Source: Thiosocius teredinicola (lineage in GTDB: Bacteria; Pseudomonadota; Gammaproteobacteria; Chromatiales; Chromatiaceae). From it: a stretch of DNA of 64,000 bases. Shown piece after piece: positions 29,209 through 53,353 of the stretch. Below the pieces are notes generated by a model. That model saw only the letters and a list, made by a program, of their open reading frames with translations. It searched no databases and was not told where the DNA came from. The stretch spans positions 1,721,297 to 1,785,296 of the forward strand of contig NZ_CP019936.1 of NCBI RefSeq assembly GCF_002009425.1, read 5' to 3'. The stretch's first letter is position 1. Each line of letters begins with the position of its first letter. Position numbers and translations under genes: made by a program.

Positions 29209-29829
29209 CTAGTGTGAAATCAAGGTGCGTGCAATGCCGACCAATTGGCGGCGCTGCTTGTCGTCCATGTCCGAATAGATCGTCATCAGTTCGCGCAGTT
29301 CGTCGGGAAACGAGGCGCACAGGCCATCCGACTCGATATGTTGTTCGTCCAGCCACGTTCGCGGTTTGTCGCCGGCTTTCTCTATCTTGCGCGCCAGGCG
29401 ATCGCCGATATGCTTGAAGGGGTTATCGATGTGCTCGATGACCGTCGACGGTTTGAGATGCAGATCGGCGATGAAGGCCGCGGTGGCGTCCTGCGAGGTG
29501 TCGGCGGCCATCTGGTACAGATAGACGAGATTTTGATGACGCACTGCCTGCAGGTCGCGTTCGCCGGATCGAATCGGCCCGAGGCCAAACATGATCCAGC
29601 AAACAGAGGTGCCGGTGAGCTTGGCGATTGTTGTGACATCGTTGGGGTGGGGCATGGAGTAACCTGCCTCGTACCACGACAGCCTGTTCTCCGGCCATTT
29701 CGGCAACTTGCGTTTGAACTCCTTCGCCGATTTGAAGCCGGCCATCTTGCGTGCCTGCGCGATACGTTTGCCGATCTTTATGGCAAGAGGATCTTTGGTG
29801 CGCGAAGGGGATGAATGAATTTTTGTCAT
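29209..29829 (-). CDS. XRE-family helix-turn-helix transcriptional regulator (phage-repressor-like)
   Basis: HTH segment IGKRIAQARKMAGFKSAKEFKRKL...DVTTIAKLTGTSVCWIMFG. Start at the internal ATG (MTKIHSS). Sits at the edge of the tRNA islet. Confidence 0.65.
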   Translation of the reverse strand: MTKIHSSPSRTKDPLAIKIGKRIAQARKMAGFKSAKEFKRKLPKWPENRLSWYEAGYSMPHPNDVTTIAKLTGTSVCWIMFGLGPIRSGERDLQAVRHQNLVYLYQMAADTSQDATAAFIADLHLKPSTVIEHIDNPFKHIGDRLARKIEKAGDKPRTWLDEQHIESDGLCASFPDELRELMTIYSDMDDKQRRQLVGIARTLISH

Positions 29830-29926
29830 ATGCAAAAAAAGTTCTTGCAAAGTAAGTTTTGCCAATTATACTTTGCGCCATTCCAGCGGGGTATGCCCGC
29901 GATAACTTTTTTTACTGGAGTTGAAC

Positions 29927-30079
29927 GTGCGTTTTCTGAACGAGCCAAGAACACAAGCCGAACGCGATGTGCGGTCAGTACTGACCGTCGCGGGCAGTCT
30001 GTGCTCGTTTGCGGTCCGGGGTGTCGACGGGTTTGTTGGCACGCTTGGCGACAAGCAACTGAAGATTGGTATGAATTGA
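29927..30079 (+). CDS. small hypothetical ORF (50 aa, GTG start with GGAG Shine-Dalgarno), divergent from the XRE gene and ending before a strong terminator
   Basis: ggag-N8-GTG. Translation MRFLNEPRTQAERDVRSVLTVAGSLCSFAVRGVDGFVGTLGDKQLKIGMN. No homology recognised. Confidence 0.3.
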   Translation: MRFLNEPRTQAERDVRSVLTVAGSLCSFAVRGVDGFVGTLGDKQLKIGMN

Positions 30080-30135
30080 CGCACTGCGATTGAAGGATCG
30101 GAGGCGTCGAGATGGATTGACGCCTTCCGGAAAGA

Positions 30136-30167
30136 ACCCCGGTAGGTGATGAACCCCGGGGTTTTTT
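30136..30167 (+). terminator. rho-independent terminator (ccccgg...ccgggg followed by T7), preceded by a second 9-bp hairpin
   Basis: aaccccggtaggtgatgaaccccggggttttttt. An upstream hairpin ggaggcgtc...gacgcctcc sits at ~30099-30127. Confidence 0.7.
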
Positions 30168-30195
30168 TGTGCCCGGTGGTTGGGAATTGAACAAC

Positions 30196-30432
30196 AGGTC
30201 GCTGGTGTAACGGTTAGCACATCGGCCGGTCAGGAAAGCGTTGGTGATTCTGGGCAGATTGAGAAGTGTTCGAAACAGACTGAATCAAGGCGCGAATCGC
30301 GCGTAATAGCGAGCTATTGCGAAGATTCGTAACGCTTAGTCGGTTTGTTTCGAGCGCTTGGCAACTGACCACGAATTGCCAACGCTTTCCTCAAGCCGAA
30401 AGGTACAGGTTCGAATCCTGTGCGACCTACCA
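30196..30432 (+). tRNA. tRNA-Asp(GUC)-like gene interrupted in the anticodon loop by a 158-bp insertion (putative disrupted or unusually processed tRNA)
   Basis: 5' half: acceptor aggtcgc, D-arm gtgt-aacggtta-gcac, anticodon stem tcggc. 3' half ~165 nt downstream: gccga, variable aaggt, T-arm acagg-ttcgaat-cctgt, acceptor gcgacct, then a + cca. All four stems are fully complementary. Removing the insert and one TCA copy restores a 7-nt loop cggtcaa with anticodon GUC. Confidence 0.6.
30233..30390. mobile_element. 158-bp MITE-like insertion with 12-bp perfect terminal inverted repeats (GGAAAGCGTTGG...CCAACGCTTTCC) flanked by a 3-bp TCA direct repeat, inserted in the tRNA anticodon loop
   Basis: The TIRs are exact reverse complements. 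TCA is duplicated on both flanks. The interior contains a 7-bp hairpin (ttggcaa...ttgccaa). No coding capacity. Confidence 0.55.
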
Positions 30433-30436
30433 GACT

Positions 30437-30513
30437 GCGCTCATGGCCAAATGGATGAAGGCACCCGGTTGCGAACTGGGAGATTCCGGGTTCGAGTCCT
30501 GGTGAGCGCGCCA
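30437..30513 (+). tRNA. 77-nt cloverleaf tRNA with anticodon GCG (Arg-decoding) but a Ser/Leu-type D-arm (3-bp GCC/GGC stem, 11-nt loop) and a short variable loop; a non-canonical tRNA
   Basis: Acceptor gcgctca/tgagcgc, then g and an encoded CCA. Anticodon arm cccgg-ttGCGaa-ctggg with U33 and A37. T-arm ccggg-ttcgagt-cctgg. Flanked by a 10-bp inverted repeat cagactgcgc/gcgcagtctg. Confidence 0.6.
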
Positions 30514-31015: not shown

Positions 31016-31089
31016 CTGGATATAGCTCAGTTGGGTAGAGCAATCGCCTTACACGCGATCAGTCAGAGGTTCGAATCCTCTTATCTAGA
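31016..31089 (+). tRNA. tRNA-Val(UAC)
   Basis: Acceptor ctggata/tatctag (one G-U pair), D-arm gctc-agttgggta-gagc, anticodon arm atcgc-ctTACac-gcgat, T-arm agagg-ttcgaat-cctct, discriminator A. CCA is not encoded. Confidence 0.8.
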
Positions 31090-31095
31090 CCTGGA

Positions 31096-32653: not shown

Positions 32654-33853
32654 ATGCCTGTTAAACATACCCTGAACAAGGGCAAGGTGCCGGTACATAT
32701 CTGGACCGAGGATGCCGAGTCGCAGGCGATGACGCAGTTGGCGAACATCGCGCAGCTGCCGTTCGTGCATCACCACGTGGCGGCGATGCCGGATGTGCAT
32801 GCGGGTATCGGTGCAACCGTCGGTTCGGTGATCCCGACCAAAGGCGCGATCGTGCCGGCGGCCGTTGGTGTGGATATCGGCTGCGGCATGAACGCGCTGC
32901 GTACCTCGCTGAAGGCCGAAGACCTGCCGGAGAGCCTGCGTCGCGTGCGAAACGCGGTCGAGGCGGCAATCCCGGTCGGCTTTGATATGCATAAGAACGA
33001 TCCGGTGAAGCGATCGACCATCACGCCGATGGCCAAAGGCCTGGACGTGATCATCGACAAGCATCCGGCGCTTGCGCGTATGCAGAAGAAGCGTCCGTAC
33101 GATGTCTGGGTGCGTCAACTGGCGACACTCGGCGGCGGCAACCACTTTATCGAGCTGTGCCTGGACGAGGTGGGTGATGTCTGGATCATGTTGCACTCCG
33201 GTTCACGTGGAATCGGCAACATCATCGGGCGCTACTTCATCAACCTGGCGCGACACGATATGGGTGACCAGCTGGGCCGACTGCCCGACAAAGATCTGGC
33301 GTACTTCACCGAGGGTGCGAAGCACTTCGAGGACTATGTCGAGGCGGTGCATTGGGCGCAGGACTACGCGATGGTCAACCGTCGGGAAATGATGCGCTCG
33401 ATCATCTCGGCACTGGAGAAGTATCTGCCGCCGTTCACGATCACCAAAGAGGCGATCAACTGCCACCATAACTATGTGGCACGTGAAACCCACTTCGGTG
33501 CCGACGTGTACGTAACGCGCAAAGGTGCGATCCGGGCCGGCGAAGGTGAGCTGGGCATCATCCCGGGCTCGATGGGCGCCAAGTCGTACATCGTGCGCGG
33601 TAAAGGCAATGCCGAGTCGTTCTGCTCGTGTTCGCACGGCGCGGGCCGACGCATGTCGCGTAGCAAGGCGAAGAAGCAGTTCAGCCAGACGGACCTGGAA
33701 CACCAGACCGAGGGTGTTGAATGTCGCAAAGACAGCGGGGTGATCGACGAGATCCCCGGTGCCTATAAAGACATCGACGTGGTAATGGCGAACCAGACCG
33801 ACCTGGTTGAAGTGGTACACACACTGAAACAGGTGCTGTGTGTGAAAGGCTGA
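32654..33853 (+). CDS. rtcB: RNA-splicing ligase RtcB (3'-phosphate/5'-hydroxyl nucleic acid ligase)
   Basis: Conserved motifs MPDVHAGIGATVGSV, GGGNHFIEL, HSGSRGIGN, NCHHNY and SHGAGR. Start at the internal ATG with a GGAGAAG Shine-Dalgarno. Confidence 0.9.
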   Translation: MPVKHTLNKGKVPVHIWTEDAESQAMTQLANIAQLPFVHHHVAAMPDVHAGIGATVGSVIPTKGAIVPAAVGVDIGCGMNALRTSLKAEDLPESLRRVRNAVEAAIPVGFDMHKNDPVKRSTITPMAKGLDVIIDKHPALARMQKKRPYDVWVRQLATLGGGNHFIELCLDEVGDVWIMLHSGSRGIGNIIGRYFINLARHDMGDQLGRLPDKDLAYFTEGAKHFEDYVEAVHWAQDYAMVNRREMMRSIISALEKYLPPFTITKEAINCHHNYVARETHFGADVYVTRKGAIRAGEGELGIIPGSMGAKSYIVRGKGNAESFCSCSHGAGRRMSRSKAKKQFSQTDLEHQTEGVECRKDSGVIDEIPGAYKDIDVVMANQTDLVEVVHTLKQVLCVKG

Positions 33854-33854
33854 G

Positions 33855-33881
33855 TGGGCCGGGGCTTCGGCCCACTCTTTT
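33855..33881 (+). terminator. rho-independent terminator after rtcB
   Basis: gtgggccggggcttcggcccac followed by tcttttt. Confidence 0.75.
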
Positions 33882-33894
33882 TACGAAACCAGTA

Positions 33895-34110
33895 ATGGAA
33901 GCAAAAGCAATGGCGAACAAGACCAACAAGGCAAGAAACCTGTTGCACAACCACCCGATGATGAAGAAGGGTGGCGTGCATCAGAAATCGAACAAGGCAC
34001 AACGTAAAAAGGAGAAAATGGCGCTGCGCAAGGCGTGGTTTTCTCCGAGTGCAGCCATGTCGGCTGTATTCGGAGAAGACCGTGCACGCATTGACATGGT
34101 TCATTGTTAA
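33895..34110 (+). CDS. small highly basic hypothetical protein (71 aa)
   Basis: ORF within listed 33838..34110, after the terminator. Lys/Arg-rich (KARNLLHNHPMMKKGGVHQKSNKAQRKKEKMALRKAW). Lower-GC region. Confidence 0.35.
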   Translation: MEAKAMANKTNKARNLLHNHPMMKKGGVHQKSNKAQRKKEKMALRKAWFSPSAAMSAVFGEDRARIDMVHC

Positions 34111-34223
34111 TTGGGGTTAGTTCTGTTCAGGCGATCGTTGCTCAATCAGTTAGACTCGATATTGTTGCTGCTGATGGAGTCGTGGTACCGTTTCGCGCCA
34201 ATGACTAGCAATGGAGATGCAGC

Positions 34224-34589
34224 ATGCCATGGCAATACAGTCAGAGTACTGGAGTACTCACAAGGGATGGGCGCGTAGTCGGAACCGGCTATTCGGGAGC
34301 AGCTGGCGTTGGGCGAAACAATCCAGATGCCGAGCGACTGACTGACGTGGGTCCGATACCGCGAGGTCAGTATCGAATTGGGGCTCAATATTCGCATCAG
34401 TCGAAAGGGCCCGTTACTATGGCGTTAAATCCCGTCAATCACTCAGCGCATGGTCGAATGCATTTTCTCATTCACGGAGACAGTATCCGGAATCCCGGCA
34501 ATGCTTCTCAAGGTTGTATTATTCTTCGGCGTGATATCCGAGAACGTATTGCCAACAGCGGTGATGCAGTTTTGGAGATTGTGAGATGA
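34224..34589 (+). CDS. Tlde1-like/DUF2778-type L,D-transpeptidase-fold toxin domain protein
   Basis: The motif HFLIHGDSIRNPGNASQGCIIL matches the His...Ser-x-Gly-Cys catalytic signature of YkuD/Tlde1 L,D-transpeptidase domains. Low-GC islet. GGAG Shine-Dalgarno. Confidence 0.6.
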   Translation: MPWQYSQSTGVLTRDGRVVGTGYSGAAGVGRNNPDAERLTDVGPIPRGQYRIGAQYSHQSKGPVTMALNPVNHSAHGRMHFLIHGDSIRNPGNASQGCIILRRDIRERIANSGDAVLEIVR

Positions 34590-34942
34590 CCCGTTTGTCT
34601 ATAGCGATCGTGGTGCTGACACTGTTTTCTAGTCCAGCGGTCGCCGACCCGGATTGTACTAGCCCCGATGCTTGGCCGGCCGGTATGGCGTTCACGCATC
34701 TGAAGAACGCGGGGTTGGTGACCAACTACAACTTGGATTTCGATAAAACGACCGTAACCCGATTGGCATCGGAAAGAGTGGGTGACGACCTCTATCGCCA
34801 GATTCACAGAGTGTCGTTTGTGAGAAAGTCTGGAGCAAAACTCGAAGCAATTACCGTCAATGATGCGTCGAATGAAGAGTGTTCCATGTCGGGCGTCGAC
34901 GTTTATGTCATCGAGAAGATGCTAGGCGACTTCAGCTCATAA
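34586..34942 (+). CDS. periplasmic immunity-like protein (signal peptide), translationally coupled to the upstream toxin-like gene
   Basis: ATGA overlap with the upstream gene. Signal peptide MTRLSIAIVVLTLFSSPAVA. Small soluble domain. Same low-GC islet. Confidence 0.55.
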   Translation: MTRLSIAIVVLTLFSSPAVADPDCTSPDAWPAGMAFTHLKNAGLVTNYNLDFDKTTVTRLASERVGDDLYRQIHRVSFVRKSGAKLEAITVNDASNEECSMSGVDVYVIEKMLGDFSS

Positions 34943-35090
34943 AGTCTTATCGTCATGGGATCTAGGTCTTGAGCCGGATACCCGATGCCAGAGGTGAAGT
35001 CGCCAAGCGCGGCCTACAATGACTACGCCTTTGCGCAGAATATGTCAGACGCCCAAGGCGTCGATTCAGTCGATCTCATCGTAAATTCAC

Positions 35091-36077
35091 CTAATTCTTG
35101 GCTCTAGCCGAGGACCTCCGTTTCGTCGAGGCGGCCGCGTGCGATCCGCCTTGCTGCACCGCCTTGCCGGTCCTCGCTTGCCCGGCAACCAAGGCGGGCA
35201 CAGCTTTCTCTATGTGCGTAAGGAACTCGATCATCGTATCAGACAGAGTTTTACCTCGCTTCCAGATCCACTCATAGGCGAACACTGCAGGTTCATTGTT
35301 GGAAAGGAGCAAGGGACGCGCGCTCGTATTGTTGGCTGACAATTTGCTCGTCGGCAATATGCCTGCACCGATACCGATCGACGTCCATTCTTCAATGACC
35401 TTATAGGTGAGTGCTTGTCCTGGATAGGGTGAGAACTTACAACGCTCGCTGGCAAACATTCGCTCGACCGCGTCGTTCAACCCGCAGCCGCCACCAGTCA
35501 AGATGATCGGCGCTGTAGGCAATTCAGAGATAGGCAGTGGGCCGGCTTGTTGGTCACTCTCGTCTGCTGCCGGTAGATAGCGGAGCTCGTCTCTATAGAA
35601 CGCCATAGAGTTTTCTTCGGCGGCGAGTTCGCGTGCAACAACAACTTGTATATCGATTTGCGTGGCATGTAGACGGGACGACAATTCGTCGACAAAACAC
35701 TCTTTGAAATACACATGAACATCCGGATGCCGTTGTCTGAACGGTTGTATTGCCTGGTTCAAGCGTTGCATGTCGACCAGCGGCGAAAACCCGATGCGCA
35801 ACATTTTGTGCGTCGGGTTCAGATACTGCTCCGCTGCTTCCAGCAAGTCGTCGCGGCTTTGTGCGACGCGCTGCATGTACGGCAGCAGGGTCTGGCCGAA
35901 GGGAGTGATTTCGACTTTGCGTGTCGTACGGGTGAACAACCGCCCGCCGAGTTCTTCTTCGAGCTGCGAGATCGCGTTCGACAGCGTGGGTTGGGTGGCG
36001 AAAGCGAGTTCCGCGGCACGACTGAACGACCCGGTTTGAGCGACCAGCAGGGCAAACTGCAGTTGTTTTAGGTTCAT
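35091..36077 (-). CDS. LysR-family transcriptional regulator
   Basis: N-terminal HTH MNLKQLQFALLVAQTGSFSRAAELAFATQPTLSNAISQLEEELGGRLF. LysR substrate-binding-like C-terminus. Confidence 0.85.
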   Translation of the reverse strand: MNLKQLQFALLVAQTGSFSRAAELAFATQPTLSNAISQLEEELGGRLFTRTTRKVEITPFGQTLLPYMQRVAQSRDDLLEAAEQYLNPTHKMLRIGFSPLVDMQRLNQAIQPFRQRHPDVHVYFKECFVDELSSRLHATQIDIQVVVARELAAEENSMAFYRDELRYLPAADESDQQAGPLPISELPTAPIILTGGGCGLNDAVERMFASERCKFSPYPGQALTYKVIEEWTSIGIGAGILPTSKLSANNTSARPLLLSNNEPAVFAYEWIWKRGKTLSDTMIEFLTHIEKAVPALVAGQARTGKAVQQGGSHAAASTKRRSSARAKN

Positions 36078-36184
36078 AATCAGATTTATTCGAAAATCAT
36101 ATAAATCAAATTCAGAAATAGAATTTCTAAATTATTCTAGCGGTACTTATGCTCTTCGTCGAAACATCTGACGAGGAAATACTC

Positions 36185-36364
36185 ATGAGTGCACAACGCA
36201 TGTTGTTCTTTACCGTGGCAGCGCTGCTGTTGACCGGCATAGGTTTGACCGGATGGCGTGAAGTCCACTGGTTTCTGTATGTGGTGCCGGCGATGCTGGT
36301 ATTCGCCGGGATCTCCGGCATCTGCCCGGGGCTGATGCTGTACAAGAAGATCGGCTTCAAGTAG
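36185..36364 (+). CDS. DUF2892 (YgaP-like) small inner-membrane protein
   Basis: Two hydrophobic helices with the GICPG motif typical of DUF2892. Start at the internal ATG MSAQRMLFF. Confidence 0.6.
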   Translation: MSAQRMLFFTVAALLLTGIGLTGWREVHWFLYVVPAMLVFAGISGICPGLMLYKKIGFK

Positions 36365-36418
36365 TCGATCGCACGACCGGCGGTCGATGTCCGTTCGGTG
36401 GTGCAGGGCACGTGGGCC

Positions 36419-51085: not shown

Positions 51086-51780
51086 CAGTCTTTCACCCGG
51101 TGGTCGACATTCACGCTGAGTTTGTCGCCTTCGAACTGCACCGGCTTGGGGTCGAACTGCATGTTCTCGTCCCGCAACACCCGCTCGTCACCACCTCGAT
51201 AGGCGAGGCGCTCATCCGGGCGTCCGGTTTCATAGGCGCTGAGGTTCAATGCCTCGGGGTTCAGGGAATCGTTGTCGGGGAGCGGCTCGGCGCGCTGTTC
51301 GGCATTCGCCCCGCGCTGCGCCAGCCAATTCAAAGCCGCTGTGATCGCCGGCTCGATCTGCGCGCGCACCACCGGGCGCAGGCTGCCGCCGTAGTCTTCG
51401 AGATGCTCTGGTTGCACACCGACCAGCAGCAGTGCACGTGGGTAGGATCCGGTAAGTTCGGCCATCGCCAGCACTTCCTGGAAACCGGTCTGGTGGAGGC
51501 TCATTTTCTTTGCGCCCATGAAGCTCGGCACGTCGTCGCCTTCGACCAGCTTCAAGGTGCCCGGTGCAAGGCCGTAGTCGACCGCGTCGAACACCACGAG
51601 GATCTCGGCGGTTTGCACATGCTCCAATAGATAGATGCCCTGGGTACCGCCGTCGATCAACGAGACGTTGCCGCCGAATTGATACCGCCGGTTGAGTTCC
51701 TCGATGGCGCGTACGCCGAACCCCTCATCTGCCCATAGCACGTTGCCGATGCCGAGTAGGGTGACACTGGGTGTCGTCAT
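51085..51780 (-). CDS. hupD: [NiFe]-hydrogenase maturation endopeptidase HupD (HyaD/HybD family) with a C-terminal extension
   Basis: LLGIGNVLWADEGFGVRA and GGTQGIYL motifs of HybD-type proteases. Confidence 0.85.
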   Translation of the reverse strand: MTTPSVTLLGIGNVLWADEGFGVRAIEELNRRYQFGGNVSLIDGGTQGIYLLEHVQTAEILVVFDAVDYGLAPGTLKLVEGDDVPSFMGAKKMSLHQTGFQEVLAMAELTGSYPRALLLVGVQPEHLEDYGGSLRPVVRAQIEPAITAALNWLAQRGANAEQRAEPLPDNDSLNPEALNLSAYETGRPDERLAYRGGDERVLRDENMQFDPKPVQFEGDKLSVNVDHRVKD

Positions 51781-51810
51781 GTCTGCTCCGCAGGTTGCGT
51801 GTTAAACGAT

Positions 51811-51821
51811 TTGCAAGCCAA
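51811..51821. promoter_or_regulatory. TTG-N5-CAA palindrome (TTGcaagcCAA), a candidate HupR/NtrC-type site in the hupD/hupS divergent region
   Basis: Read directly, ~30 nt upstream of the hupD start. HupR-type regulators are reported to bind TTG-N5-CAA. Confidence 0.3.
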
Positions 51822-52209
51822 GTGGCAAGTTGCATGCCGCTCGTAGGGCCATCGCTCAAGTACCGGATTTTCAACGTGTTCTTGAATGCTTATCCGGTCG
51901 GTGCAGCAGAATTCGGAAACAATCCTTTCAGTGATGTCGGCAATCCGGCAAAGAACTTTACAGAATACTTGACGATTTTGCTTGGGGAAGGCGGTTACTT
52001 GGTGGCGCCTGGCGTCGAGTTCCGGCTGAACACTTGCCACTTGGCGTTCATGCATGAATTTTCATTCAAAAAGCGGCTGACCGCTGCCGGCGGAGGTGAA
52101 AGCGTTCCTTCCAGCTGAGTGCAAAGAACCGTTTAACGCTTTTCGGCAATGCTTAGGATTGAAATCGAGAAAACAGCATAACCCTTTGTTTTTAAAAGCC
52201 TAAAAAACT

Positions 52210-52226
52210 TGGCAGAGTCTTTGCTA
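52210..52226 (+). promoter_or_regulatory. putative sigma-54 (-24/-12) promoter TGGCAG-N6-TTGCT upstream of hupS
   Basis: GG and GC are spaced 12 nt apart, matching the TGGCAC-N5-TTGC consensus. Lies ~57 nt upstream of the hupS ATG, and a sigma54-dependent HupR is encoded nearby. Confidence 0.5.
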
Positions 52227-52282
52227 TTCCTGCTTACACAAAGCGCACCGGCCGAGTTGCGCTATTGCCACGGGAGATAAGC

Positions 52283-53353
52283 ATGACAGAGACCTTTTAC
52301 GAGGTGATGCGGAAGCAGGGGATTACCCGCCGCAGCTTCCTGAAATATTGCAGCCTGACCGCTGCCGCGCTGGGGCTGGGTCCAGCGTTCGTTCCGAAGA
52401 TCGCGCATGCGATGGAAACCAAGCCCCGCATCCCGATCCTGTGGCTGCACGGCCTGGAATGTACCTGCTGTTCGGAATCCTTTATCCGCTCGGCACACCC
52501 GTTGGCCAAGGACGTGGTTTTGTCGATGGTCTCACTCGACTACGACGACACCATCATGGCGTCGGCCGGTCACCAGGCCGAGGCCATCATCGAAGAGACC
52601 ATCCAGAAATACGACGGCAACTTCATCCTCGCGGTCGAGGGCAACCCGCCGCTCAACCAGGATGGCATGTCGTGCATCATCGCCGGCAAGCCGTTCGTCG
52701 AACAGCTGCAGCATGCTGCGGCACACTGCAAGGCGATCATCTCCTGGGGTTCATGCGCCTCGTACGGTTGCGTGCAGGCGGCCAAGCCGAACCCGACGCG
52801 CGCCACGCCGGTTCATAAAGTCATTCACGACAAGCCGATCATCAAGGTGCCGGGCTGCCCGCCCATCGCCGAGGTCATGACCGCCGTTGTGACCTATATG
52901 CTGACCTTCGACCGCATTCCCGAGCTCGACCGCCAGGGTCGGCCGAAGATGTTCTACAGCCAGCGTATCCACGACAAGTGCTACCGCCGTCCGCATTTCG
53001 ATGCCGGTCAGTTCGTCGAGAGCTGGGACGATGAGAACGCCCGCAAGGCCTACTGCCTGTACAAGATGGGCTGCAAGGGTCCGACCACCTACAACGCCTG
53101 TTCGACCATCCGCTGGAACGAGGGCACCTCGTTTCCGATCCAGGCCGGACACGGCTGTATCGGTTGTTCTGAAGACGGCTTCTGGGACAAGGGCTCTTGG
53201 TATGCCCGCCTTACCGACATCAAGCAGTTCGGTGTCGAAAGCAATGCCGACAAGGTCGGTATGACTGCCGCCGGCGTCGTCGGTGCAGCCACCGCCGCAC
53301 ATCTCGCCGTTAGTGCCGTCAAGCGCGCCCAGCAGAAAGGAGACAAAGAATGA
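52283..53353 (+). CDS. hupS: uptake [NiFe]-hydrogenase small subunit HupS (Tat signal)
   Basis: Twin-arginine leader [18 protein letters not shown]. Fe-S cysteine motifs. ATG with a GGGAGA Shine-Dalgarno. Confidence 0.9.

What the first reader, a model, noticed from the sequence alone, without database searches (positions are those of the whole stretch)
34224..34942. Orphan Tlde1/DUF2778-like L,D-transpeptidase-fold toxin with a translationally coupled periplasmic immunity gene in a low-GC islet
A 121-aa protein carries the His...Ser-x-Gly-Cys(Ile) catalytic signature of YkuD-type L,D-transpeptidase domains. T6SS peptidoglycan-targeting effectors (Tlde1) and DUF2778 proteins use this signature. 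It overlaps by 4 nt a gene for a signal-peptide-bearing small protein. That is the classic effector/immunity layout, with the immunity protein placed in the periplasm where peptidoglycan is. Local GC is clearly lower than the flanks, and there is no T6SS, VgrG or PAAR nearby. It is likely an orphan or remnant pair, possibly retained only for immunity.
Basis: partly seen in the sequence, partly recalled or inferred. Interest (0 to 1): 0.6.

Follow-up and report, generated by a model that had tools for sequence, protein, structure and literature searches.

The report
Cell-wall toxin with periplasmic immunity partner

Summary
ORF A (34224-34589, 121 aa) and ORF B (34586-34942, 118 aa) overlap by ATGA. 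A scores above Pfam's cut-off for Tlde1_dom/DUF2778. Its confident AF2 model best matches Salmonella Tlde1a and L,D-transpeptidases, and His84 and Ser95-x-Gly97-Cys98 are invariant in homologues. B has a Sec-type signal peptide, two invariant cysteines and no known domain.

The window is Thiosocius teredinicola. RefSeq already names A "tlde1 domain-containing protein".

New points:
- A belongs to a large subfamily of short (~120 aa) stand-alone proteins, about 50 aa shorter than Tlde1a. Most of the 39 genome loci have a signal-bearing downstream partner.
- A 64%-identical A plus a B-family partner lies directly after tssB-tssC-hcp in an Azoarcus MAG. Hcp is adjacent in three more loci. This supports Hcp-cargo T6SS delivery for the clade.
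- Here the pair is orphan, with no T6SS genes found in the 64 kb. It is not a remnant: it is syntenic in a relative with 88% nt identity, and dN/dS is about 0.1 for both genes.
- The same subfamily occurs in phage lysis cassettes.

I could not test whether Thiosocius has a T6SS elsewhere. Verdict: an ordinary new member of a known kind.

The parts
34224..34589 (+). Toxin gene A (121 aa, stop included). A short stand-alone Tlde1_dom / L,D-transpeptidase-fold protein with no signal peptide. Identical to RefSeq WP_078119250.1.
   Evidence: Pfam PF10908, 51.7 bits; AF2 mean pLDDT 94.8; best Foldseek match 7uo8_A, Tlde1a; 100% identity to the RefSeq protein; phrog_24118, 114 bits.
34473..34517 (+). 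Active-site segment: His84 codon at 34473-34475, Ser95-Gln96-Gly97-Cys98, with the Cys98 codon at 34515-34517.
   Evidence: Sequence. H84, S95, G97 and C98 are invariant in 30 homologues. The motif was compared with Tlde1a H121...S128-H129-G130-C131.
34586..34942 (+). Putative immunity gene B (118 aa, stop included). A periplasmic small protein of a family with no annotated domain. 98% identical to cluster representative P0121, whose cluster (built at 90% identity) holds RefSeq WP_078119251.1; identity to that record itself was not checked.
   Evidence: no family match; 60 homologues; invariant C24 and C99; AF2 mean pLDDT 91.5; only weak cystatin/NTF2-like fold matches; homologues lie directly downstream of A homologues.
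34586..34645 (+). Coding region for the predicted Sec signal peptide of B, residues 1-20: MTRLSIAIVVLTLFSSPAVA, with cleavage before DPDC.
   Evidence: Read by eye. The N-terminal helix has lower pLDDT in the model. No dedicated predictor was available.
34586..34589 (+). ATGA overlap: the start codon of B overlaps the stop codon of A, giving translational coupling.
   Evidence: The same -4 overlap occurs in more than 20 related loci.
34213..34216 (+). GGAG Shine-Dalgarno sequence for A, 7 nt before the ATG.
   Evidence: Read.
34574..34577 (+). GGAG Shine-Dalgarno sequence for B, inside the 3' end of A and 8 nt before the ATG.
   Evidence: Read.
33852..33887 (+). Strong terminator-like hairpin (11 bp, 8 G-C pairs) plus a T run just after the RtcB stop. 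It separates the upstream operon from the small ORF and the toxin/immunity unit.
34921..35008 (.). Inverted repeat with 18-nt arms, 89% complementary, spanning the 3' end of B. It is a possible transcript end, and the similarity to the relative L046 stops here (34949).

Best explanation
A and B form an intact, selectively maintained toxin/immunity pair of the Tlde1 (DUF2778) superfamily.

A is a 13-kDa cysteine L,D-peptidase with the YkuD fold. I infer that it attacks the peptide stems of peptidoglycan by L,D-carboxypeptidase and/or L,D-transpeptidase exchange chemistry, through the His84/Cys98 pair. It has no export signal, so it is harmless in the producer's cytoplasm and has to be delivered into a neighbour's periplasm.

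B is made by translational coupling and exported by Sec. It probably carries a Cys24-Cys99 disulfide. I infer that it binds and blocks any A that reaches the cell's own or a sister cell's periplasm.

The most likely delivery route is as cargo inside the Hcp tube of a type VI secretion system encoded elsewhere in the Thiosocius teredinicola genome. The cassette is a horizontally acquired two-gene module that sits alone here between an RtcB operon and a LysR regulator.

Shown here: family, fold, catalytic residues, layout, conservation, purifying selection, and T6SS linkage of close homologues. Inferred: enzymatic activity, inhibition by B, the disulfide, and the delivery route in this organism.

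The confidence of 0.62 is for the whole statement. Taken alone, the toxin/immunity-pair part is about 0.85, and T6SS delivery in this organism is about 0.5.
For: **Family and fold**
- Pfam Tlde1_dom scores 51.7 bits against a cut-off of 30.1, and YkuD scores 24.3 against 23.4.
- The AF2 model has mean pLDDT 94.8.
- All 11 Foldseek PDB matches at E <= 0.001 are Tlde1a (top, 7uo8_A, TM-score 0.65 over the query) or mycobacterial L,D-transpeptidases; the L,D-carboxypeptidases Pgp2 and Csd6 follow at E 0.001-0.007.
- H84, S95, G97 and C98 are invariant in 30 homologues.
- In Tlde1a, H121 and C131 are required for toxicity. Tlde1a is toxic only in the periplasm and is neutralised by a Sec-exported immunity protein.

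**Partner gene**
- Most of the 39 genome loci have a directly following gene on the same strand. More than 20 have the same -4 overlap, and most have a hydrophobic N-terminal signal.
- B-family proteins occur directly downstream of A homologues, or as orphan copies or fragments in arrays.
- B diverges in step with A. Examples of A/B identity to the window pair: 63/57%, 64/50%, 50/44% and 48/29%.

**Link to T6SS**
- In the Azoarcus MAG L005, a 64%-identical A with a B-family partner follows tssB (VipA, E 5e-61), tssC (VipB, E 1e-133) and hcp (E 9e-39) directly.
- Hcp is also adjacent in L015, L011 and a Pantoea vagans plasmid, where it is annotated tssD.
- Published analysis finds 43-77% of DUF2778 family members near T6SS genes and proposes Hcp cargo delivery.

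**Maintained, not decaying**
- The pair is at the same position in relative L046, with 88% nt identity, and both ORFs are intact.
- dN/dS is 0.096 for A and 0.099 for B.

**Foreign origin**
- GC is 0.517 against 0.606 for the window (z = -2.9), and GC3 of A is 0.42.
- The nearest named homologues are betaproteobacterial.
Against: - No T6SS gene lies in the 64-kb window. I could not establish whether T. teredinicola has a T6SS at all, and I found no literature statement.
- Only 4 of the 41 distinct genome, metagenome and plasmid loci examined (the window's own lineage not counted) have Hcp next to the pair. Their neighbourhoods are otherwise heterogeneous.
- The protein is distant from the one characterised member. 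There was no sequence-level match to Tlde1a in PDB searches, and identity in the structural alignment is 16%.
- It is about 50 aa shorter than Tlde1a and probably lacks the capping subdomain that Tlde1a needs for toxicity.
- The second His of Tlde1a's SHGC is Gln here and varies within the subfamily.
- Homologues of the same subfamily sit in phage lysis cassettes, so the fold is not tied to T6SS.
- No activity, toxicity or A-B binding was or could be tested.
Confidence: 0.62

Rival explanations
1. This is a stranded pair kept only for immunity. On this view the organism has no means of delivering A, and the cassette persists because B protects against Tlde1-type attack by neighbours.
For: - There are no T6SS genes in the window.
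- Orphan immunity genes are known in this superfamily, for example Tai6 in S. Typhimurium.
- Orphan B copies and fragments occur in L004 and L005.
Against: - The toxin ORF is intact, with all catalytic residues.
- It has dN/dS of 0.096 over dS of 0.41 against a relative. That is as constrained as B, at 0.099.
- If only immunity were selected, A should accumulate frameshifts or relaxed substitutions, as the A fragments in L005 do.
Confidence: 0.12
2. This is a toxin/immunity pair delivered without a T6SS. A could be released by cell lysis, in outer-membrane vesicles, or by another secretion or contractile injection system, and would act on neighbours as a bacteriocin-like peptidoglycan toxin.
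For: - Most members of the short subfamily are not next to T6SS genes.
- DUF2778 genes have been reported near T1SS, T2SS, T4SS and T5SS genes and in phyla without T6SS.
- The pair also occurs on small plasmids and in viral contigs.
Against: - No such system is encoded next to the pair here.
- A free 13-kDa protein has no evident way across a target's outer membrane.
- The only recurrent secretion-related neighbour found is Hcp.
Confidence: 0.15
3. This is a remnant of a phage lysis cassette. On this view A is an endolysin-type L,D-peptidase and B is a lysis accessory protein of the spanin or holin type.
For: - A matches phrog_24118 over its full length (114 bits).
- Homologues at 48-55% identity lie next to a holin (L052, L105) or an Rz-like spanin (L060) in viral contigs.
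- Erwinia and Dickeya jumbo phages carry copies.
Against: - B has no PHROG match.
- B is predicted to be a cleaved, globular alpha+beta periplasmic protein. It is not a membrane-anchored coiled coil or a lipoprotein.
- B's own homologues pair with A behind tssBC-hcp.
- No phage gene is present in the flanks.
- The pair is stably syntenic in a relative.
Confidence: 0.04
4. A is a housekeeping cytoplasmic peptidoglycan-recycling or remodelling enzyme, an L,D-carboxypeptidase acting on recycled tetrapeptides. B would be an unrelated periplasmic protein that happens to be co-transcribed.
For: - A lacks a signal peptide.
- Both genes are under purifying selection.
- The Tlde1 authors note that some DUF2778 proteins may simply remodel peptidoglycan.
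Against: - The pair has atypical GC and GC3 and a patchy distribution typical of horizontal transfer.
- The downstream partners are polymorphic, and there are tandem arrays and fragments.
- Locations on plasmids and phages and links to Hcp are hallmarks of conflict systems, not housekeeping genes.
Confidence: 0.04

Closest known systems
Tlde1a / Tldi1a of Salmonella Typhimurium SPI-6 (STM14_0336 / STM14_0335; PDB 7UMA, 7UO3, 7UO8)
   Same: - Same Pfam family, PF10908.
- It is the best structural match to the A model (7uo8_A).
- It has a catalytic His...S-x-G-C motif.
- The effector has no signal peptide, and the adjacent immunity protein has a Sec signal.
- It is small enough to travel as Hcp cargo.
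   Different: - Only about 16% identity in the structural alignment, and no sequence-level match in PDB searches.
- 121 aa against 173 aa, so the capping subdomain (containing W90) is probably missing. This is inferred from length and predicted secondary structure.
- 13 residues separate His and Cys, against 9 in Tlde1a.
- SHGC is SQGC here.
- The immunity gene is downstream and belongs to an unrelated family without a Pfam domain, whereas Tldi1a is upstream and is DUF2195.
- The pair is not in a T6SS cluster.
Orphan hcp-effector-immunity islands with the same short Tlde1 subfamily (Azoarcus MAG L005; Pantoea vagans pVag1 L043; L011; L015)
   Same: - Same ~120-aa subfamily, at 37-64% identity.
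- Same -4 overlap with a signal-bearing downstream gene.
- L005 also has the same B family.
   Different: Those loci carry hcp immediately adjacent, and L005 also carries tssB and tssC. The window has none.
YkuD-type L,D-transpeptidases and L,D-carboxypeptidases (LdtMt2, Csd6, Pgp2)
   Same: They share the core beta-sandwich fold and the His/Cys catalytic pair. Pfam YkuD scores just above its cut-off.
   Different: - Those enzymes are exported, multi-domain housekeeping proteins.
- A is a bare catalytic domain with no signal peptide.
- A is paired with a putative inhibitor, and its genetics are those of a mobile element.
phrog_24118 phage proteins (function unknown), including Erwinia and Dickeya jumbo-phage 'DUF2778 domain-containing' proteins
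   Same: A matches the profile over its full length at 114 bits and is 44-55% identical to phage copies.
   Different: The phage copies often lie beside a holin or spanin, or beside structural genes, and most lack a B-like partner. The window has no phage genes.

Membership tests
Pfam PF10908 Tlde1_dom (DUF2778 superfamily) | Sequence match above the curated gathering score. | tested here: met
   51.7 bits against a cut-off of 30.1, covering residues 21-111 and profile positions 4-106 of 120. RefSeq names the identical protein 'tlde1 domain-containing protein'.
Pfam PF10908 Tlde1_dom (DUF2778 superfamily) | L,D-transpeptidase (YkuD-like) fold. | tested here: met
   The AF2 model has mean pLDDT 94.8. 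The top Foldseek PDB match is Tlde1a 7uo8_A (E 2.5e-4, TM-score 0.65 over the query), followed by LdtMt2, Pgp2 and Csd6.
Pfam PF10908 Tlde1_dom (DUF2778 superfamily) | Catalytic His and Cys in an H-x(n)-[S/T]-x-G-C-h motif. | tested here: met
   H84...S95-Q96-G97-C98-I99. H84, S95, G97 and C98 are invariant in 30 homologues. One deviation: the His of Tlde1a's S-H-G-C is Gln here and varies in the subfamily.
Tlde1a-type effectors (Salmonella, characterised) | Capping subdomain over the active-site cleft (beta6-7, alpha1, eta2; W90), which is needed for toxicity. | tested here: inconclusive
   The protein is 52 aa shorter than Tlde1a. The model has a single alpha-helix (103-112), placed after the catalytic Cys. 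The Foldseek TM-score over the target is only 0.48. Absence is inferred, because no residue-level superposition was available.
Tlde1a-type effectors (Salmonella, characterised) | L,D-carboxypeptidase and D-amino-acid exchange activity on peptidoglycan, with periplasm-specific toxicity. | not testable with these tools
   This needs toxicity assays and muropeptide analysis.
T6SS Hcp-cargo effector/immunity pair | Genetic linkage to hcp, vgrG, PAAR or T6SS core genes at this locus. | tested here: not met
   There are no TssB, TssC or Hcp homologues in the 64-kb window. The large ORFs are housekeeping genes. The syntenic +/-10 kb carries no T6SS Pfam family.
T6SS Hcp-cargo effector/immunity pair | Linkage of close homologues to T6SS genes elsewhere. 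| tested here: met
   L005 has tssB-tssC-hcp-A(64%)-B. Hcp is adjacent in L011, L015 and L043.
T6SS Hcp-cargo effector/immunity pair | A T6SS is present in the same genome. | not testable with these tools
   Only 64 kb of the 4.79-Mb genome is available. The genome-collection scan did not return this genome, and no paper addresses the point.
T6SS Hcp-cargo effector/immunity pair | The effector lacks a signal peptide and the immunity protein is exported to the compartment where the toxin acts. | tested here: met
   A's conserved N-terminus, MPWQYSQ, is part of the fold. B has n/h/c regions and an AxA site, conserved in character across 31 homologues. This is a manual assessment only.
Tldi1 immunity proteins (DUF2195) | A sequence match to DUF2195. 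| tested here: not met
   B has no Pfam or NCBIfam match apart from a sub-threshold PepSY_2 hit on the signal peptide. It has no significant Foldseek PDB match.
Phage lysis cassette (endolysin with holin or spanin) | An adjacent holin or spanin and a phage gene context. | tested here: not met
   B has no PHROG match. The flanking genes are RtcB, Band7, LysR and a cytochrome c peroxidase. Phage homologues of A do sit in such cassettes.

The most novel reading that the evidence does not exclude
The short (~120 aa) Tlde1-like subfamily (phrog_24118) may be a minimal L,D-peptidase module without a capping subdomain that moves between two uses. In phages it would serve as an endolysin in lysis cassettes. 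In bacteria it would serve as an interbacterial toxin paired with a previously undescribed family of cystatin-like periplasmic inhibitors, to which B belongs. In Thiosocius, an intracellular shipworm gill symbiont, the pair could be maintained and used without any T6SS, through lysis or another route, to police co-resident symbiont strains.
Probability: 0.12. Interest if true: 0.55.

Novelty: new member of a known kind. Interest (0 to 1): 0.27.

Why it matters
For the genome, this adds one confident interbacterial-competition cassette to a cultivable chemoautotrophic shipworm symbiont. Strain competition inside bacteriocytes is of some interest in that setting.

For the Tlde1 field, three modest points arise:
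- A very large subfamily of about 120 aa appears to lack the capping subdomain and the second motif histidine that were studied in Tlde1a. Its chemistry may therefore differ.
- The subfamily's immunity partners, including the B family with its conserved DPDC...ECSMSG cysteines, have no annotated domain.
- The same subfamily appears in phage lysis cassettes.

None of this is surprising to a specialist, and the gene is already named correctly in RefSeq.

Tried and rejected
- **Sequence searches of the PDB.** The single protein gave no hit. A 30-sequence profile gave only a weak YkuD hit, 4lpq, E 1.2. The link to Tlde1a therefore rests on Pfam and fold comparison.
- **Exact look-up of A in the contig index.** It found nothing. 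The organism was identified through cluster members instead.
- **Apparent loss of the toxin gene in relatives.** The gene tables for L046-L049 list no toxin gene. tblastn shows intact ORFs at 92-99% identity, so this was rejected as an artefact of the gene tables.
- **T6SS status of Thiosocius.** Three literature searches found nothing, and the Distel 2017 PNAS paper is not held.
- **A conserved neighbour besides the partner gene.** Pfam scans of 290 neighbouring ORFs from 39 loci showed no recurrent family except a few Hcp hits.
- **Flanking repeats or insertion-sequence ends around the islet.** None were convincing.
- **The small upstream ORF as ArfA.** BLASTP against an E. coli ArfA sequence recalled from memory gave nothing.
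Full report
**1. The observation**

The window holds two same-strand ORFs, 34224-34589 (121 aa, A) and 34586-34942 (118 aa, B). They overlap by ATGA. Each is preceded by a GGAG 7-8 nt upstream of its ATG (read). Neither ORF can be extended upstream.

A carries His84 and Ser95-Gln96-Gly97-Cys98-Ile99. B begins MTR-LSIAIVVLTLF-SSPAVA|DPDC, which is a textbook Sec/SPase I signal read by eye.

GC of the pair is 0.517, against 0.606 +/- 0.031 for equal-sized windows (z = -2.9, lowest 1.6%). GC3 of A is 0.42, against 0.75-0.77 for the Band7 and RtcB genes. The low-GC tract is wider than the finding, about 33800-36400, and includes the LysR gene.

**2. What A is**

- Pfam places A in Tlde1_dom/DUF2778 (51.7 bits, cut-off 30.1). 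YkuD scores just above its cut-off.
- A 30-sequence alignment shows H84, S95, G97 and C98 to be invariant.
- The AF2 model is confident, with mean pLDDT 94.8.
- All 11 Foldseek PDB matches at E <= 0.001 are Salmonella Tlde1a (7uo8_A, the top hit) or mycobacterial L,D-transpeptidases; the L,D-carboxypeptidases Pgp2 and Csd6 follow at E 0.001-0.007.

Tlde1a is a T6SS effector that trims or exchanges the fourth residue of peptidoglycan stems. It is toxic only in the periplasm, needs H121 and C131, and is neutralised by a Sec-exported immunity protein.

A is nevertheless a distant relative of Tlde1a:
- PDB sequence searches found no match to Tlde1a.
- Identity in the structural alignment is about 16%.
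- A has 121 aa against 173 aa.
- A has 13 residues between His and Cys, against 9 in Tlde1a.
- Tlde1a's S-H-G-C is S-Q-G-C here, and that position varies in the subfamily.
- The model has one helix, placed after the catalytic Cys. I therefore infer, but did not show, that Tlde1a's capping subdomain is absent.

**3. Organism and prior annotation**

Exact look-ups show that the window's RtcB is a Thiosocius teredinicola protein. A is 100% identical to WP_078119250.1, "tlde1 domain-containing protein [Thiosocius teredinicola]". B is 98% identical to the representative of the cluster that holds WP_078119251.1, annotated "hypothetical protein". The toxin call is therefore already in public annotation.

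**4. The family and its partner gene**

A has more than 600 homologues, nearly all stand-alone proteins of 118-122 aa.

A scan of species-representative genomes gave 39 loci. They come from Beta-, Gamma- and Alphaproteobacteria, Acidobacteriota, Geobacteraceae, Anaeromyxobacteraceae and Pirellulales. In most of them a same-strand gene follows directly. More than 20 have the identical -4 overlap, and most partners have a hydrophobic signal-like N-terminus. The partners fall into several unrelated families, as expected for polymorphic toxin/immunity systems.

Properties of the B family:
- It has 60 homologues and no Pfam or NCBIfam domain.
- Its signal segment is variable. The mature start is conserved (DPDC), and C24 and C99 are invariant. 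I infer a periplasmic disulfide from this.
- B homologues are found directly downstream of A homologues, or as orphan copies and fragments.
- B diverges in parallel with A, and faster.
- The model (mean pLDDT 91.5) is one helix packed on a four-stranded sheet. Foldseek finds nothing significant.

**5. Delivery**

The Azoarcus MAG L005 has tssB, tssC and hcp, all confirmed with Pfam. They are followed immediately by a 64%-identical A and a B-family partner, and then by an hcp fragment, an inverted B copy with an A fragment, a B fragment and a divergent A copy.

Hcp is also adjacent in a Geobacteraceae MAG (L015), an Oxalobacteraceae genome (L011) and a Pantoea vagans plasmid, where the layout is tssD-tlde1-hypothetical. 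Published work proposes Hcp-cargo delivery for this superfamily and finds 43-77% of members near T6SS genes.

In the short subfamily, however, only 4 of the 41 distinct loci examined outside the window's own lineage have Hcp alongside. Scans of 290 neighbouring ORFs show otherwise unrelated contexts. Standing alone is therefore the commonest situation for this subfamily.

The window itself has no TssB, TssC or Hcp. Its large ORFs are ribonucleotide reductase, NiFe hydrogenases, ATP sulfurylase and regulators. The immediate neighbours are Band7, RtcB, a LysR regulator and a cytochrome c peroxidase. I could not determine whether Thiosocius encodes a T6SS elsewhere.

**6. Not a remnant**

Contigs from a related organism (L046-L048, assembled from SRA runs) align at 84-88% nt identity (88% for L046) and carry the pair in the same place after Band7, RtcB and the small ORF. 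Both ORFs are intact there. The gene tables omit the toxin gene, but tblastn shows it at 92-93% amino-acid identity.

Against L046, dN/dS is 0.096 for A and 0.099 for B, compared with 0.03 for RtcB. Similarity stops right after B, at 34949. The relative has two transporter genes there that the window lacks, and its LysR region is only 69% identical.

The toxin is therefore under purifying selection. This argues against retention for immunity alone, and it implies that A does something for the cell.

**7. Phage connection (a side finding)**

- A matches phrog_24118 (function unknown) over its full length at 114 bits.
- Fifty-eight IMG/VR contigs and 58 deposited phage records carry homologues at 37-55% identity. 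The deposited records are mainly Erwinia and Dickeya jumbo phages.
- In some contigs the neighbouring gene is a holin (L052, E 1.5e-25; L105, E 6e-5) or an Rz-like spanin (L060, E 7e-5). This is the position an endolysin would occupy.
- Other contigs carry the -4 overlap with a B-like partner.

This raises the rival idea that the window's pair is a phage lysis remnant. Several results argue against it. B has no PHROG match and is a globular, cleaved periplasmic protein. Its homologues accompany A behind hcp. No phage genes flank the pair.

**8. Verdict**

The 'remnant or immunity-only' suggestion is not supported.

The most likely mechanism is this. A is a cytoplasmically inert L,D-peptidase toxin delivered into neighbours' periplasm, most probably inside Hcp. 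B is co-translated, exported by Sec, and neutralises A. The enzymatic activity, the inhibition by B and the delivery route in Thiosocius are all inferred.

This is a new member of a known kind and is already annotated as such. Interest is low to moderate. It lies mainly in the uncharacterised short subfamily, its immunity families that have no annotated domain, and its dual presence in T6SS islands and phage lysis cassettes.

Noticed in passing
window 33910-34110 (+): A 66-aa lysine-rich ORF lies between the RtcB terminator and the toxin gene. Its N-terminal 45 residues or so are conserved in the relative L046, while the C-terminus varies. The coding region contains very stable hairpins at about 34011-34070 (z = -4.6), one of which looks like a terminator. 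It has no Pfam or NCBIfam match. An ArfA-like reading (rescue factor made from a truncated mRNA) was tested only by BLASTP against a sequence recalled from memory, and that gave nothing.
   Followed up: partly
window 30437-30513 and 31016-31091 (+): tRNA-Arg(GCG) and tRNA-Val(TAC) lie directly upstream of the Band7(SPFH)-RtcB (RNA ligase) genes. To my knowledge a GCG anticodon for Arg is unusual in bacteria. The tRNAs sit beside a low-GC patch at 29700-30500.
   Followed up: no
window 34949-35259, compared with L046 10364-13036: Synteny breaks immediately after gene B. The relative carries Gly_transporter and Na_Ala_symp genes that are absent from the window, and the LysR region beyond is only 69% identical, against 88% upstream. 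This looks like a recombination or variable hot spot next to the cassette.
   Followed up: partly
L005 7303-12613 (Azoarcus sp. MAG): tssB-tssC-hcp is followed by an array: an A-B pair, an hcp fragment, an inverted B copy with an A fragment, a B fragment, and a divergent and apparently frameshifted A copy. This is a typical effector/immunity accretion zone.
   Followed up: partly
L033 8776-11625 and L040 8803-11698 (Tatumella): Each locus has three tandem A-like genes, and each gene has its own downstream signal-bearing partner.
   Followed up: no
L052 2077-2897; L105 5584-6797; L060 6001-6812; L045 (Erwinia phage Y3) 3998-4363: Homologues of A in viral contigs lie next to a holin or an Rz-like spanin, which is the position of an endolysin. 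Erwinia and Dickeya jumbo phages carry copies at 44-47% identity. The family is phrog_24118, function unknown.
   Followed up: partly
L044 1525-2231 (Burkholderia glumae plasmid p28s4p, 16 kb): An A homologue (54% identity) with a B-family partner lies right after trfA on a small plasmid that also carries Tra genes. This is a plausible vehicle for spread of the cassette.
   Followed up: no
Pantoea agglomerans megaplasmids, hits H35-H40 and H47: A feature listed under the tblastn match to A, alongside the Tlde1-like gene, is annotated 'Shiga toxin A subunit'. This is either an odd label or a second toxin in the same island.
   Followed up: no
window ~700-2000 and 51590-52308: Two further patches have GC as low as the toxin/immunity pair. 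Their content was not examined.
   Followed up: no
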